From Candidatus Aenigmatarchaeota archaeon (GTDB lineage: Archaea > Aenigmatarchaeota > Aenigmatarchaeia > QMZP01 > QMZT01), in contig CAVSBQ010000002.1 of NCBI GenBank assembly GCA_963726265.1, positions 800,001 through 864,000 of the forward strand: a stretch of 64,000 nt of DNA, written 5' to 3'. Every line of letters starts with the position of its first letter. Position 1 is the stretch's first letter. Position numbers: made by a program. Shown one piece after another: positions 21,001-27,000 of the stretch.

Positions 21001-24000
21001 ACCGCGTAGAGCACGGGCATCTGGAAAACGAGCATGGCAAAGATGTAGACGAAGAGCGGCGCAATCATGTGCATTTTCCAGTCCATATCAGAAACCTCCT
21101 GCGGGTTTCGATGCATCCAGCAACCCGCCCACATCTCCGTTCCGCTACCTCCAAACGCTAAAAATATTACGAGTCAGGCGTTCATGATGATGCGCGCGTC
21201 CGCCGCCTTCACGCCTTTCTCGCTCACAAAAAGCGGATTTATGTCGAGTTCCTCGATTTTTTTCTCCTTCCATACCAGGTTCGAAACCTTCAGCAGCGTA
21301 TCCTCCAGCGCCTTGAAATTCACGGGCTTCTGCCCCCTCACGCCCTTGAGAATAACGTAGCCCTTTATCTCGGCAATCATTGCCTTCGCATCCTTCCTCT
21401 CGAAAGGTATAATCCTGAAGGCAACGTCCTTTATCACTTCGACGAATATGCCGCCGAGGCCGAACATGAGGACAGGCCCGAACTGCGGGTCGTTTTTCGA
21501 GCCGACGATGCACTGGTGGCCTTCCGTCACCATTTCCTGGACGAGCACGCCCAGTATCTTCGCATCCTTCTTGTAGGCCTTCGCGTTCTTTATTATTTTT
21601 TCAAAACCCTTCGCGACGTCTTCGCCGCTTTTCAGGTCAAGCAGGACGCCGCCAGCGTCGGTCTTGTGCAGTATGTCCGGCGACTGGACTTTAAGTGCGA
21701 CAGGGAAGCCTATCATTTTTGCGGACGCGGCTGCCTGCTGCGGGTTTTTTGCAAGAAGTTCCTTTGTCACGGGAATGCCGTATTTCGCCAGCAGCTTCTT
21801 TGCCTCGAATTCCGCCAGCTTCTTCTGCCCGGCGTTTTTCACGTCCTTGTGATTTCCCCGATTACCCCTTTTCATAATATTATTTACTAATCACCCATAT
21901 TTAATATATGAGCCTTGATGCTTTGTTTTCGCCGAAGTCCGTGCTTCTCGTAGGCTCCTCGAAAATAAGCGAGAAGTTCATAATGGTCAAGCCGGAGATT
22001 TTTGACAGGGTTGGCATCAACCTTAACAGGTTCTCTGTCTCGGGAAAAATAGCGATCGCGAGCGTCGAGGAGAGGCTCGACCTGAAGGCATGCGACCTCG
22101 CCGTCATAACCCTTCCGCCTGAAAAAACCCTTGAAATAATGCCGTCGCTGAAGGCGAAGGCTGCCATTATCCTTTCCGGCGGCTTTGATGCTGATCAGAG
22201 GAAAAAATTGAAGGCAATCGCCGCGTCAAAGCGCATGCGCGTGCTAGGGCCGAACTCCGTTTGCGGGGTGATAAACCCATACGTATCGCTCAACACGACC
22301 TTCGAGCCTGAGATGAAAATAAGGCCTGGCAGGATAGCGGTCATCTCGCAGTCAGGCGGCGTGGGAGTCACGCTGCTCGATTACATGGTTTCCAACGACA
22401 TCGGAGTTTCGAAGTTCGCTTGGGCCGGCGACATGGCCGACGTAAACGAGTGCGATCTGCTGGAGCACATGCTGGCCGACGAAAAGACCAGGGTCGTCCT
22501 CCTTTATCTCGAGGCGCTGAAGGAGCCGAGGAGGTTCATGGAAATCGCGAAACATGCGCGCAAGCCCGTAATAGTCCTGAAGGCCGGCGTCTCCAGGGAA
22601 TCGAGGAGCCGCGCGCTCACGCACACGGATTCGCTTTCGACCGACGCGGAGATATACTCCTCGGCCTTCAAGCAGACCGGCGTGATAGAGGCGGAAAGCG
22701 TGCGCGAGCTTTTCAGCTGCGGCCAGCTTTTCGAGAGATACGAAAAAAGGCGGATAGAAAGGATAGCCATCGTTTCCAACACCGGCGGCTCATCCATCCT
22801 TGCCGCCGACGTGTGCTACAGGCTCGGCCTCGAGCTCGCCCAGCTTTCCGGGCGGACGAAAAGCAGAATCCTCAGGCAATATCCCAAAATAAAGACGCTC
22901 AACCCGGTCGACATGGCAGCAGACGCCGACGGCGAGCGCTACAAGTTCGTTCTCGACGCGGTGGCGGGGGATGCGCATGTCGACGCCATCATCATAATAA
23001 GCCAGTTCAAGTCCTGCTTGCTTAAGCCGGAGGATCTCGATGCGCTCAAGAGAGTGAAGACCGGCAAGGTCGTCGTCGCCTGCGCGCCGGGCGACGAAGA
23101 TTACAGGAAAGCGAGGTTCTTCCTGCGCGACTCCTTCCCGTTGTACAGCTCCGTGGACGACGCCGTGAAGGCCCTGAAAAAAGCGGCGGAATACGGAAAA
23201 CGGTTTTAAAGACTGCTGGGCTATTTATAAAAAACGGTTTGGTTTGGGGTGGTTATATGACCAGGCATTTCCTGACGTTGCTGGATTTTTCCGAAAAGGA
23301 GGTAAGGCACATACTTGACCTTGCCATAAAGCTGAAGGCAGGCGAGGTCGATCACAAGCTCGAAGGCAAGACCCTCGGCATGCTTTTCGAGAAACCCTCG
23401 ACGCGGACCAGGGTTTCTTTCGAGGCGGGCATGACGCAGCTTGGAGGCCATGCAATATTCATAGACATGCGCACGACCCAGCTAGGCCGCGGCGAGACGA
23501 TAGAGGACACCGCGCGCACGCTGGAAAGGTATTGCGACATCGTGATGGCGAGGGTGAACAACCACAGCGACCTCGATAAAATGGCCGGAGTATCGAAAAT
23601 CCCGATAATAAACGGGCTAAGCGAAAAATTTCACCCGTGCCAGACCATGGCGGACATGATGACCGTGCTCGAAAAAAAGGGAAGGCTCGACGACCTGAAA
23701 GTCGTCTTCCTAGGCGACTGCGGCTTCAACATGTTCAACTCGACAATGATAGGCTTTTCCAAAATGTGGTCGAACGTAGTGGGCATCTGCCCTCCGAAAA
23801 GCGAATACATGCCCAAGCCTGAAATCTTCGAGCGCGCGAAGAAGCAGGCCAAGGGCAGCATAAAGATGGAGCACGACCCGGTAAAGGGGATAAAGGACGC
23901 GGACGTCGTCCATACCGACGCCTGGGTCTCGATGGGCCAGGAAAACGCGGAGGAGAGGATAAGGGAATTCAAGCCATACCAGCTCAACGCGGAGCTTCTC

Positions 24001-27000
24001 CGCCACGCGAAAGCGGACGCGATAGTGATGCATTGCCTGCCCGCGCACCGCGGGCATGAGATAACCAACGACGTCATAGACGGCCCGCAGTCCGTCGTGT
24101 TCGACCAGGCCGAGAACCGCCTGCACGTGCAGAAGGCCATAATGCTTTACCTGCTGAAAGGCGTGTGAAGGGCATGAAACTTTTATTTAGCCTGAACTCA
24201 TATTAAGAAACGGGAACATGTGCTTCGCGCTGACGGGAAAGGTGTTGGGTGTCGATGGCAAGGAGGCGCTTGTCGATTTCGACGGCATCCGGAGGAAAGC
24301 GAATGCCGAGTTCATAAAGGTCAGGAAGGGCGACAGCGTCGTCGTGTTCAGCGGCTTCGTGATAGAGAAGATTAAAGCCTGAAAATTTTGATGTGAATTA
24401 TATGTTCAAGGTATTGCCGATAAAGGACAGGGAGCTTTTCCTGCGCTACGCCATACCATGCGGCGAGTTCCTGGTGAAGAGAGGCGAGGTCAAACAGGAG
24501 CTTCTCTCGAAGCTCAACGACGTGGTCAGGAATGGCCAGGAGACCGACATTCCAATAGAGAAGACGTTCAAGGTCGCCTCCAGGATGTGCACGATTCTGG
24601 CGAAACAAATGGGCAAGAAGGAGATAGACGCCGATGTCATCAGGCGCTACTTCCTCGTCGAGCATGAAAATGCGATAAGATGGAGGAAGCAGATCAGGCC
24701 GGAGCTCAAGCTCGAGGAATGTCTTGTTTACCCTGGCAGGGTCTTGAAACTAGGGAACGAGAGCGTCCTCGTCAAAACGCCATTAGGAGAGCGCCTGTTC
24801 AGGGACGACTTCGCGAACGGGATAAAGGCGAATGACTGGGTGAGCGTGCATTACGATTACATCGCCGAAAAGATAAGCCCGGACCACGTCCGCATGATGA
24901 GGAGACTCAACAGATGAAGATGAACAACAAGGAAATGTTCGGGACGACGCTAGCGATATTCGCAGCGGTGGTCAGCGGCATTGCCATACCCCTGAACAAG
25001 ATTTTCGTCGTCGACATCGACCCGGCCGTCTTCACAGCAGTCCGCGCCGTGATAATAGGCCTCGTTTTCCTTCTTATATCGTTCCAGACGCACGGCATGA
25101 GCAGGAAGCTGTTCAGGCACGACTGGAAGTATTTCATCTTCATCGCGGTCGTCGGAGGCGCGCTCGCATTCCTGATGTTCTTCACCGGCCTGAAGCTCAC
25201 GACCGCTGGCAGGGCGGCCTTCATACAGAAAACGCTGCCCATTTACATCGCCTTATTCGCGTTCGCCTTCCTGAAGGAAAAAATCCCGAGGAAGCAGTTC
25301 GCCGCGCTCGCGGTCATGCTGGTGGGGCTGCTGCTCATCGTTTCGACGCAGATAAACCCCGCCGAGCTATGGATGGACCCGCAGCTCGGCGACATGCTGG
25401 TCCTGGGAGCGACGGTGCTGTGGGCGCTCGAAAGCGTGGCCGCCAAGAAGGTCATGAGCGACGGCGCGAAGAACTCGATAGTCTCGTTCGCCAGGATGTT
25501 CTTCGGAGGGCTCGTGCTTTTCGGTGCGGTGGCGCTCACGAACAAGTTCAGTGCCCTTTTCACGCTCACAGTGCAGCAGTGGAACAACATATTCGTTTCG
25601 ACGGTAGTGCTGTTCGGCTACGTCCTGTTCTGGTTCTGGAGCCTGCGCTACATCAACGTTTCAAAGGCTTCGATACTGCTGCTGATTGCGCCAGTCGTTT
25701 CGCTCGTGGCGGGCGTCATGTGGCTCGGCGAGCCCGCGCCGCTCATGCAGCTCGTCGGCAGCGCGGCCATCCTGATAGGCGCGTATTTCGTGGCCAACAT
25801 AAGAAGCGAGATGAAGACGGGCGTTTAACGTTTTCCGCGATGAAAATAGCAATACCCTATTCCCACATTTAACCTCAGCGCGATTTGTGGACACATGTTA
25901 TCTGCCACCGGATATACTCTCTTTTCTTGAGATGTGCCCGATAATCTCTCTATTGCATGGACTCTGAAATGCGCCAGTTCAGCTTCTGTAACAGCAACTG
26001 GGTGAAACAACGGATAGAAAGGATCTTCTCGTCCCATTCTTATAAAAGCGAAGAAAAGTTTATAAAATCTTATTGTTCCATGCCTTTCTTTCGCCAAAGA
26101 TGGCCGTGCCGACCCTGACCATGTTCGCCCCTTCTTCTATCGCTGCGGCGAAGTCGCCGCTCATGCCCATCGAGAGATAGCGCATCTCAACATGCGGGAT
26201 TTCTTTTGCAGCAAGCGAATCGAACAGTTTTTTCATGCCGCGGAAGACGGGCCTCGCTTTTTCCGGGTTGTCGAAGAGCGGGCCGATGGTCATTAGCCCC
26301 TGAATTTTTATGCCTTCAAACCTTGAAGCGCATTTCAGGAAATTTTCCAGCTCGCAGGCGCGGATGCCGAAATGCTTTTTATCGTCCGTGAGCACCTCGA
26401 CGAGAACGGGCATGCGCTTTCCCGTTTCGAGCGCTGCGCCGCTTATTTTTTCCGCAAGCTTCAGCGAGTCGACCGATTGGACCATGTCGCATAGTGCGAC
26501 TGCCTTCCTCGCCTTGCTGCCCTGCAGGTGGCCGATGAAATGCTTCCTCGCATCCGGGAAAAGCGGGAATTTTCGTTCGGCTTCCTGGATGCGGTTCTCC
26601 CCGATGTCCGCAAGGCCGGAATCAAGCGCTTCTTTTATGCGCTCCGGAGCGAAGGTCTTAGACACTCCCACAAGAACTATAGCCTCCGGATTCCTGCCGC
26701 TCCTCGCTGCCGCTTCCGCTATCGCTCTCCTGACAGAAACCAGATTTTCACTTATGCGCTTTTTATCCGCTTCCCCGCATTCCATTCAGACCCTTCTGGT
26801 AAGCAGCTCGACGTGGTCGGCGACGTTCTGCAGCGCCCTGGAGAAGCCTGGGTTTATGCCGACGATTATGATGGTCTTCCCCTTTTCCTTGGCGAGCTGT
26901 AGCGCAGGCAGGTAATCCGCGTCCCTCGAGGCCAGCGCTATAACGTCAATCCTGTCGTTGAACGCGGCATTGACAATTTCGACGGCGACGCTGACGTCCA

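What a model noticed while it worked through the whole genome (the two positions that open the first line are those of the whole stretch)
23257..25828. OTC-hypC-DUF6390/HypC-fusion operon: candidate replacement for missing HypD/E/F
g00863 is a conserved two-domain protein (new helical N-domain related to DUF6390 with invariant Cys-Gly, His and Cys residues, plus a C-terminal HypC fold). It sits right behind hypC, in this family in an operon with ornithine carbamoyltransferase (the carbamoyl-phosphate source), and tracks [NiFe]-hydrogenases where HypD is absent.
Evidence so far: In 23 of 36 order genomes, 22 of which have a hydrogenase large subunit, 0 of 3 in the hydrogenase-free family; HypD in only 3 of 36, two of them without g00863. 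hypC adjacent in 11 of 12 loci, OTC in 6, hydrogenase large subunit in 2. Invariant residues; model pLDDT 91, C-domain matches HypC Z 10.1. OTC-HypC pair near in 11 order genomes of 23 in all.
(Added by a program. Inside this text positions count along the whole contig: contig position 800,001 is position 1 of the stretch shown here. "Call 12" and the like, gene names such as g00115 and contig names such as C1 are that model's own, and its searches are not shown. The text may have been shortened before it was handed on; [...] marks where a part breaks off. The agent that wrote the report below was given it as the finding of a first reader that could run no searches.)

Follow-up and report, generated by a model that had tools for sequence, protein, structure and literature searches.

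The report
Import route for hydrogenase metal cofactor
Many microbes carry a hydrogen-converting enzyme but lack the genes that build its cyanide-and-carbon-monoxide iron centre; they carry instead a small chaperone, an unstudied scaffold protein and a membrane transporter, which suggests they take the iron centre up from outside.

Summary
The genes are real: OTC, hypC, g00863 (a compact DUF6390 homologue) and an EamA transporter, in an Aenigmarchaeota-like genome with two intact-looking [NiFe]-hydrogenases and no HypA/B/D/E/F found. The OTC link looks like family-level synteny: 11 of 14 loci in this family, 0 of 16 elsewhere in the order, 0 of 115 other loci. The partner that matters is the transporter. 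Bacterial DUF6390 sits either behind a full hypCDEF block or behind hypC plus a transporter (EamA, or one of two ABC importers). None of 32 transporter-type genomes had HypD; 41 of the other 48 did. In 251 genomes of one actinobacterial family, all 35 hydrogenase genomes without HypD carried DUF6390, 34 with a transporter; the EamA subfamily was in 0 of 23 HypD genomes. A predicted g00863-HypC complex (0.61, best control 0.00) has HypC Cys2 and invariant Cys23/His91/Cys110 in its interface. Best reading: a salvage module that imports an Fe(CN)2CO-type unit and loads it via HypC. Substrate and activity are inferred; the tree-based test is concordant but not significant (p 0.125). My searches found no paper on it. 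It is testable in cultured Actinobacteria.

The parts
24218..24382 (+). hypC: short (54 aa) HypC chaperone with Cys2; the His of the canonical VxVH strand is replaced by Phe
   Evidence: PF01455 E 5.7e-14. His kept in 0 of 34 module HypCs of the order versus 5 of 5 HypD-linked HypCs
24393..24917 (+). g00863: compact DUF6390 homologue; helical N-domain plus HypC-like OB domain; conserved Cys23, His91, Cys110, His153; proposed Fe(CN)2CO-receiving scaffold (start may be ATG 24402)
   Evidence: C23 116/122, H91 122/122, C110 119/122, H153 122/122; hhalign to DUF6390 99.0%; C110 and H153 align with HypC Cys2 and the HypC His; predicted complex with HypC 0.61 versus best control 0.00
24914..25828 (+). 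EamA/DMT transporter of a distinct subfamily (EamA*) that travels with DUF6390/g00863 in archaea and bacteria; proposed importer
   Evidence: PF00892 1.1e-43; in 19 of 30 order loci and 26 of 80 DUF6390 loci; co-occurs with g00863 in 47 genomes, 6 and 8 alone; 0 of 23 HypD genomes in the actinobacterial family
23257..24168 (+). Ornithine carbamoyltransferase: real gene, same strand, but a family-level neighbour and probably not part of the module
   Evidence: TIGR00658 388 bits; adjacent in 11 of 14 family-f1 loci, 0 of 16 others, 0 of 115 further loci
21908..23209 (+). ADP-forming acetate-CoA ligase alpha subunit (beta at 21174-21875, minus): synteny control that accompanies OTC
   Evidence: TIGR02717 9e-90, below cut-off; an ACD gene lies beside OTC in all 11 OTC loci

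Best explanation
hypC + g00863/DUF6390 + EamA is a salvage module for the iron half of the [NiFe]-hydrogenase active site. A cell without HypD/E/F cannot make Fe(CN)2CO. The transporter (EamA* here; an FbpABC-like or FecCD-like ABC importer in other genomes) brings in a ready-made or nearly ready Fe-cyano/carbonyl complex released by hosts or neighbours. DUF6390 receives it on its Cys/His site and shares it with HypC Cys2, as HypD Cys41 does. HypC delivers it to the large subunit, nickel is added (by HypA/B where present) and HycI cleaves the tail. In genomes that keep hypCDEF, DUF6390 is kept without the transporter, as a relay or recycling scaffold. Shown: gene content, neighbourhood, conservation, the exclusion pattern. 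Predicted: the g00863-HypC interface. Inferred: metal binding, direction and substrate of transport, activity of the hydrogenases.
For: (1) 80 named DUF6390 loci: 32 have an adjacent transporter (26 EamA*, 5 Fbp-like, 1 Fec-like) and 0 of these 32 genomes have HypD; the 26 EamA* genomes also have no HypF while both positive controls rang. Of the other 48, 41 have HypD (32 in the locus, 9 elsewhere; two of the 9 are unpublished genomes, two are partial matches). (2) 251 genomes of one actinobacterial family, at least 90% complete: 58 hydrogenase genomes = 23 with HypD + 35 without; all 35 carry DUF6390, 22 with EamA*, 12 with an ABC importer, and the last (G500) has hypF cut by a contig end. 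(3) Block swap in the same operon type: G368 has HycI-hypC-hypF-hypC-hypD-hypE-DUF6390; G479 has HycI-hypC-DUF6390-binding protein-permease-ATPase-hypA-hypB. (4) Three unrelated transporter families fill the slot; two are ABC systems with a solute-binding protein, i.e. importers. (5) Close DUF6390 sisters differ in both traits together: G425/G468, G500/G362, L112/L146. (6) Predicted g00863-HypC complex: score 0.61, best of 3 controls 0.00; the mark was reached by 116 of 157 solved complexes and 2 of 215 mismatched pairs; runs agree in at least 93% of contacts, partner pLDDT at least 86; interface includes g00863 C23, H91, C110 and HypC residues 1-5. HypC Cys2 with HypD Cys41 ligates Fe(CN)2CO (PMC11565642, passages). 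(7) Single-ORF fusions of g00863 with HypC (4), HycI (1) and EamA (3). (8) Large subunits of HypDEF-less genomes keep both CxxC motifs, the APRG Arg, the PT/PS motif and the cleavable tail. (9) Recognised Ni/Co transporters (NicO, CbiM) occur beside DUF6390 in HypDEF-positive loci, and CbiM occurs in addition to EamA* in Demequina, so they do not show this exclusion.
Against: No substrate is identified; nearest solved binding proteins are only distant and EamA proteins include exporters. The tree-aware test gives 3-4 concordant and 0 discordant of 5 supported pairs, sign-test median p 0.125; with three doubtful rows dropped 2-3 of 4, p 0.25, so the Fisher values (3e-7) overstate. Transporter type is confounded with hydrogenase group (EamA* mostly 3b/4, ABC with the 1h type). 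G048 has HypD/E and the whole module. In the order, 15 of 67 hydrogenase genomes without HypD showed neither g00863 nor EamA*; only G086 was shown to be an assembly gap. Seven of the 80 loci have neither HypD nor a recognised transporter. Some ABC-type loci are broken (G377 importer, G573 large subunit and binding protein in pieces) and Cellulomonas APG4 keeps EamA-DUF6390 without a hydrogenase operon in the locus. EamA-type genomes also lack HypA (0 of 5), which Fe salvage alone does not explain. A FecDE-type ABC system imports nickel in H. pylori (PMC5140060). A free, transferable Fe(CN)2CO species in the environment is not known to me. Most genomes are incomplete MAGs. The family sample was centred on a known positive and shares two genomes with the discovery set.
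Confidence: 0.55

Rival explanations
1. DUF6390-HypC is an alternative assembly scaffold that builds Fe(CN)2CO in the cell from simple imported precursors (cyanide, thiocyanate, cyanate or similar) plus CO or CO2; the transporter supplies the ligand precursor and not the finished unit.
For: Same exclusion pattern; HypD-like contact with HypC Cys2; nearest solved relatives of the Fbp-like binding protein include a pyridoxal-5-phosphate-binding protein, hinting at an anion.
Against: g00863 has three conserved Cys/one His pair at most and no Fe-S or thioredoxin-like motif for the redox steps; archaeal module HypC has lost the conserved His (its role in biosynthesis is recalled); HCN and CO cross membranes unaided (general knowledge); a FecCD-type system suggests a metal chelate.
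Confidence: 0.2
2. The transporters import nickel and DUF6390 is a nickel chaperone replacing or helping HypA/B; the Fe unit comes by a route not seen here.
For: G000 and 5 of 5 EamA-type actinobacteria lack HypA; Cys/His ligands suit nickel; NicO sits near DUF6390 in 4 HypDEF-positive loci; NiuBDE of H. pylori is a FecDE-type nickel importer (PMC5140060, passages).
Against: ABC-type loci keep hypA and hypB yet still lack hypD; a nickel role does not explain why the transporter goes when hypDEF is present; Demequina has CbiM as well as EamA*; the predicted partner is HypC, the Fe carrier.
Confidence: 0.12
3. These hydrogenases are inactive remnants or work without the CN/CO-ligated iron, and the module is a leftover of a lost hyp cluster.
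For: A few broken loci (G377, G573, G475, Cellulomonas); 15 of 67 order genomes show no maturation gene among those searched.
Against: g00863 is 46-84% identical across 97 proteins with invariant Cys/His; active-site motifs and HycI are kept; the transporter is absent from hypDEF clusters, so it is not a leftover of them.
Confidence: 0.08
4. One reading: OTC supplies carbamoyl phosphate and g00863 converts it, replacing HypD, HypE and HypF.
For: Same strand, short gaps; G000 shows no CPS, arginine deiminase or carbamate kinase, so OTC may be its carbamoyl-phosphate source.
Against: OTC adjacent only in family f1 and always with ACD; 0 of 115 other loci; no ATP-binding or carbamoyltransferase domain found in g00863; a second carbamoyltransferase at C2:496085 (probably ATCase) gives another use for carbamoyl phosphate.
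Confidence: 0.05

Closest known systems
HypC-HypD scaffold of the canonical HypABCDEF pathway
   Same: HypC with Cys2; a partner predicted to bring a Cys/His face to HypC residues 1-5; intact large subunit and HycI
   Different: No HypD, HypE or HypF; the partner is unrelated to HypD by Pfam and its best fold match is HypC; a transporter gene takes the place of the biosynthetic block; archaeal module HypC lacks the conserved His
HupK/HoxV plus HupF/HoxL relay of O2-tolerant membrane-bound hydrogenases (PMC3534401, passages)
   Same: A second scaffold that accepts a preformed Fe(CN)2CO unit and works with a HypC paralogue
   Different: HupK/HoxV acts downstream of HypCD in the same cell and carries large-subunit-like motifs; DUF6390 has a helical plus HypC-like fold and persists without HypDEF, linked to importers
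DUF6390 (PF19927)
   Same: Homologous over 161 columns; same C-terminal Cys and His; same neighbours (hypC, EamA*, HycI, large subunit)
   Different: g00863 is about 75 residues shorter and scores below the Pfam cut-off (19.9 versus 25 bits)
Cofactor salvage systems such as BtuFCD/corrinoid or thiamine salvage (recalled)
   Same: Biosynthesis genes replaced by an importer and a receiving protein, in mutually exclusive distribution
   Different: My searches found none described for a hydrogenase Fe-cyano-carbonyl centre
CPR group 3b hydrogenases hyd1/hyd2 with neighbour family fam002 (PMC7304191, passages)
   Same: Group 3b large and small subunit with a shared neighbour family, some members HypC-like; L125 and L127 have the short (162-167 aa) small subunit described for hyd2
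   Different: The passages I read do not name DUF6390, the transporter or missing HypD/E/F; whether fam002 includes DUF6390 was not checked

Membership tests
Canonical Hyp maturation pathway | HypD (PF01924) in the genome | tested here: not met
   No match over cut-off in G000, controls rang in 4 genomes; genome 88% complete
Canonical Hyp maturation pathway | HypE and HypF (CN synthesis from carbamoyl phosphate) | tested here: not met
   TIGR02124 none; TIGR00143 only short matches to a 123-aa and a 330-aa ORF
Canonical Hyp maturation pathway | HypA and HypB nickel chaperones | tested here: not met
   None over cut-off; no phmmer hit with actinobacterial HypA/HypB
Canonical Hyp maturation pathway | HypC with N-terminal Cys2 | tested here: met
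   MCF start, PF01455 over cut-off
Canonical Hyp maturation pathway | Large subunit with two CxxC motifs and a maturation protease | tested here: met
   3b-type and group-4-type subunits with both motifs; HycI-like genes beside both
DUF6390 (PF19927) | Pfam gathering score of 25 bits | tested here: not met
   19.9 bits
DUF6390 (PF19927) | Profile-level homology over both domains | tested here: met
   hhalign probability 99.0, E 6.3e-18, 161 columns; DUF6390 profile finds g00863 as its only hit in G000, E 2e-6
DUF6390 (PF19927) | Same invariant Cys/His residues | tested here: inconclusive
   C110/C151 and H153/H212 align; C23/C20 and H91/H122 are invariant in each family but were not placed in one column
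HypD-type scaffold | HypD sequence or fold with 4Fe-4S and thioredoxin motifs | tested here: not met
   No PF01924 match for g00863; only C23, C66 and C110 are conserved cysteines
HypD-type scaffold | Binds HypC so that Cys2 meets a scaffold Cys | tested here: inconclusive
   Prediction only: 0.61 versus best control 0.00; interface lists C23, H91, C110 and HypC 1-5; no Cys-Cys distance was available
HupK/HoxV relay scaffold | HupK family sequence | tested here: not met
   No HupK-family match in Pfam or NCBIfam scans of g00863
HupK/HoxV relay scaffold | Binds Fe(CN)2CO | not testable with these tools
   Needs FTIR or native mass spectrometry
Known nickel importers (NicO, CbiM, NikABCDE, NiuBDE) | Family match for the window's transporter | tested here: not met
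   EamA PF00892 only; nickel transport itself was not testable

The most novel reading that the evidence does not exclude
The Fe(CN)2CO unit of [NiFe]-hydrogenase is a shared metabolite, like vitamin B12: producers with HypDEF make it, and many DPANN archaea, CPR-like bacteria and free-living soil Actinobacteria (including carriers of group-1h-type hydrogenases) import it through dedicated transporters and install it with DUF6390-HypC. In the sampled actinobacterial family this route would serve 34 of 58 hydrogenase genomes.
Probability: 0.45. Interest if true: 0.95.

Novelty: categorically new. Interest (0 to 1): 0.87.

Why it matters
All six Hyp proteins are described as required for [NiFe]-hydrogenase maturation (PMC11879354, passages). 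Here 67 of 72 hydrogenase-bearing genomes of an archaeal order and 35 of 58 in an actinobacterial family lack HypD. The module explains how such enzymes could still be active, gives DUF6390 a first function, and predicts cross-feeding of an organometallic cofactor. That would bear on how H2 cycling is read from metagenomes, on host dependence of DPANN/CPR cells, and on biotechnology (a three-gene maturation kit fed with a synthetic Fe complex). It can be tested in cultured, non-pathogenic strains such as Pedococcus cremeus CGMCC 1.6963, Demequina silvatica NBRC 109395 and Intrasporangium sp. DVR.

Tried and rejected
OTC as a module member: rejected. 'New DUF6390-HypC fusion': rejected, DUF6390 already ends in a HypC-like domain. 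Direct homologue searches stayed within the archaeal family and did not reach bacterial DUF6390; plasmid tblastn found no DUF6390; three annotated plasmid 3b loci showed no DUF6390 annotation (one record almost unannotated). Fold searches matched only the HypC-like domain; the N-domain was not folded alone, so 'new fold' is not shown. HypD was not listed among the fold matches, which does not exclude a weak likeness. No RNA holder was listed for the locus. The sigma-70 promoter scan is uninformative for an archaeon. The careful tree did not finish; the quick tree was used. Dropped rows: 3 hypC-only hits from the g00863 count (G012, G047, G090); 6 weak N-terminal-only PF00374 hits (G420, G475, G493, G504, G520, G568; taken as complex I subunits, not verified; one of them, G475, has a broken DUF6390); 40 of 120 motif loci with short flanks; L109 and L131 from the pair test; two entries that were g00863 C-domains, not HypC. 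Literature: 'DUF6390' 0 papers; DPANN + HypD 0; eight further searches listed no paper on a HypDEF-independent or import route; subscription journals are mostly not covered and no supplements were read (the fam002 table of PMC7304191 may bear on prior recognition).

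
Full report
1. Observation. The four genes are present on the plus strand: OTC 23257-24168, hypC 24218-24382, g00863 24393-24917 and EamA 24914-25828. Named homologues of g00863 are from Aenigmarchaeota. The genome (88% complete) encodes a four-subunit group-3b-type hydrogenase at C2:127091-131279 and a group-4-type one at C2:1045314-1047768, each with a HycI-like protease gene and intact CxxC motifs. HypD, HypE, HypF, HypA and HypB gave no match over cut-off while controls rang.

2. The protein. g00863 has 97 close homologues at 46-100% identity and 321 distant representatives. In 122 diverse sequences C23, H91, C110 and H153 are kept in 116, 122, 119 and 122. The model (pLDDT 90.4) has a helical N-domain and an OB domain whose best match is HypC (Z 10.1, rmsd 2.1, 65 residues). 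C110 and H153 align with HypC Cys2 and the His of the HypC VxVH strand. The family is homologous to DUF6390 over 161 columns (probability 99.0), and a DUF6390 model (pLDDT 93.4) also ends in a HypC-like domain (Z 5.7). So it is a short DUF6390, not a new fusion. Among 24 representatives scanned, eight are single-ORF fusions: four with an N-terminal HypC, one with HycI, three with EamA (one looks frameshifted, and read-through artefacts are possible).

3. The order (91 genomes). g00863 53, large subunit 72, HypD 5, HypE 5, EamA subfamily (EamA*) 55 including two short fragments. g00863 and EamA* co-occur in 47 genomes, with 6 and 8 alone; two of the 8 that I inspected hold a divergent g00863 found by the broader profile. 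Four of the 5 HypD genomes have neither; G048 has both systems. From the coordinates, g00863 lies within about 6 kb of a large subunit in 19 of 53 genomes. In 30 loci (1.5 kb flanks) hypC is present in 29, EamA* in 19 across four families, HycI in 6, and OTC in 11, all in family f1 and all with an acetate-CoA ligase gene beside OTC. Fifteen of 67 hydrogenase genomes without HypD showed neither g00863 nor EamA*. For one of them, the same-genus G086, the whole neighbourhood (OTC, YggS, NYN and ACD-beta orthologues) is missing from the assembly, so that absence is a gap. The other 14 remain unexplained.

4. DUF6390 beyond the order. A motif scan of species-representative genomes stopped at 120 loci; 80 came with flanks, mostly Actinomycetota with a few archaea and others. 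They fall into types. Type A: DUF6390 at the end of a hypC-F-C-D-E block (HypD in 32 loci). Type B: a 3b-type operon, HycI, hypC, EamA*, DUF6390 (26 loci, 22 of them with the large subunit in view). Type C: hypC, DUF6390 and an ABC importer (6 loci). No locus had both hypD/E/F and one of these transporters, and none had OTC. Genome-wide, HypD was found in 0 of the 32 type B/C genomes and in 9 of the 16 remaining ones (two of the 9 are unpublished genomes G313 and G325, two are partial matches); HypF in 0 of 26 type B genomes with two positive controls ringing. Without the unpublished genomes the non-transporter group is 39 of 46.

5. A less biased test. In 251 genomes (at least 90% complete) of the family of Pedococcus cremeus: EamA* 22, HypD 23, overlap 0; DUF6390 46; large subunit 64, of which 6 weak N-terminal matches were set aside. 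Of 58 hydrogenase genomes, all 35 without HypD carry DUF6390, against 10 of 23 with HypD. The 35 split into 22 with EamA*, 12 with an ABC importer next to DUF6390 (FbpABC-like in 5, FecCD-like in 7), and G500, whose hypF runs off a contig end. The ABC-type operons resemble group 1h by their accessory genes (NifU, DUF5947, DUF6084; group assignment recalled). Most show hypA and/or hypB in the fetched stretch; HypF was absent in 4 of 4 tested and HypE in 2 of 2. G368 has the same operon with hypF-C-D-E in place of the importer. The 3b operons of HypD-positive genomes have no EamA* (G387, G442, G425, G347). Type B genomes also lack HypA (0 of 5). The sample was centred on a known positive and shares two genomes with section 4.

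6. Independence. On a quick tree of 118 DUF6390 sequences the Hyp label needs 9 changes, at least 5 forced by strong branches; close sisters G425/G468, G500/G362 and L112/L146 differ in both traits. The pair test gave 3-4 concordant, 0 discordant of 5 pairs (median p 0.125), and 2-3 of 4 (p 0.25) after dropping three doubtful rows. The direction is consistent but not significant.

7. Predicted complex. g00863 with the window's HypC scored 0.61 against a best control of 0.00; the mark was reached by 116 of 157 solved complexes and 2 of 215 mismatched pairs; runs agreed in at least 93% of contacts and partner pLDDT was at least 86. The interface is mainly the helical domain and includes C23, H91 and C110 with HypC residues 1-5. 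In E. coli, Fe(CN)2CO is held by HypC Cys2 and HypD Cys41 and HypC alone is proposed to deliver it (PMC11565642, passages). The archaeal module HypCs have lost the strand His (0 of 34 keep it, versus 5 of 5 HypD-linked HypCs of the order), while actinobacterial type B and C HypCs mostly keep it (29 of 34, 12 of 13). This is a model, not evidence of binding in a cell.

8. Mechanism. CN ligands are made by HypF and HypE from carbamoyl phosphate (PMC4161419, passages). Without them, and with large subunits that keep their metal and ligand-contact motifs, the iron unit must come from elsewhere. The swap of a biosynthetic block for one of three unrelated transporters, two of them importers by architecture, is the usual signature of salvage. 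I put import of an Fe-cyano/carbonyl unit at 0.55, in-cell assembly from imported simple ligands at 0.2, nickel import at 0.12, decay at 0.08 and the OTC-fed route at 0.05. For nickel: NicO lies near DUF6390 in 4 HypDEF-positive loci and CbiM in one, and a FecDE-type system imports nickel in H. pylori; but these known nickel carriers do not exclude hypDEF, and Demequina has CbiM as well as EamA*. OTC may still matter to this cell: no CPS, arginine deiminase or carbamate kinase was found, and a second carbamoyltransferase is present, so OTC could feed pyrimidine synthesis.

9. Prior knowledge. No paper in the library names DUF6390. PMC7304191 (passages) notes a neighbour family of CPR 3b hydrogenases with some HypC-like members. 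PMC3534401 (passages) describes HupK/HoxV as a relay scaffold downstream of HypCD. Term searches within PMC12727194, PMC9258230, PMC10936187, PMC8204110 and PMC11879354 (passages only) showed no mention of this module. Other papers were seen only as search listings. Supplements were not read.

10. Verdict. The system is hypC-DUF6390-transporter rather than OTC-hypC-DUF6390, it spans archaea and bacteria, and it most likely imports the cofactor's iron unit. It fits neither the Hyp pathway nor the HupK relay. Interest 0.87.

Noticed in passing
G000 C2:496085-497002 and window 23257-24168: The genome has OTC and a second carbamoyltransferase (probably ATCase) but no CPS, arginine deiminase or carbamate kinase was found; OTC run backwards from citrulline could feed pyrimidine synthesis.
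   Followed up: partly
window 12435-20631: A large repetitive, Asn/Thr-rich surface-type protein gene region (1565 aa ORF followed by several shorter ORFs in shifting frames and a 666 aa ORF) looks like one frameshifted gene.
   Followed up: no
window 21174-23209: Acetate-CoA ligase beta and alpha subunits are separate genes transcribed divergently with only 32 bases between the starts.
   Followed up: no
L085 (G203) 624-3650: An Aenigmarchaeota genome with full-length DUF6390, hypA, hypC, HycI and a 3b hydrogenase beside a suf cluster, with no HypD or HypF found and no EamA* in the 15 kb read.
   Followed up: partly
L100 (Cellulomonas sp. APG4) 7259-8952: EamA*-DUF6390 follows what looks like a stump of the 3b beta subunit gene, suggesting deletion of the hydrogenase operon; an arginine deiminase gene lies about 1.5 kb upstream.
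   Followed up: partly
L128, L142, L238-L242, L246 (ABC-type loci): A small HTH-type protein and a muconolactone-isomerase-like protein recur beside the importer genes and may belong to the module or regulate it.
   Followed up: no
L027-L032, L035 (families f5, f6): A metallo-beta-lactamase-fold gene recurs next to hypC-g00863, in f6 followed by a second unassigned gene; DUF1847 follows g00863 in L007.
   Followed up: partly
L125: Record titled Gammaproteobacteria, but the locus (46% GC, 162-aa small subunit) resembles the CPR hyd2 arrangement and its DUF6390 groups with L114.
   Followed up: no
L275, L283, L284: Aenigmarchaeota 3b loci without g00863 share a small membrane protein gene near HycI, and two have nifS/nifU-like genes and one a hypA-like gene nearby.
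   Followed up: no
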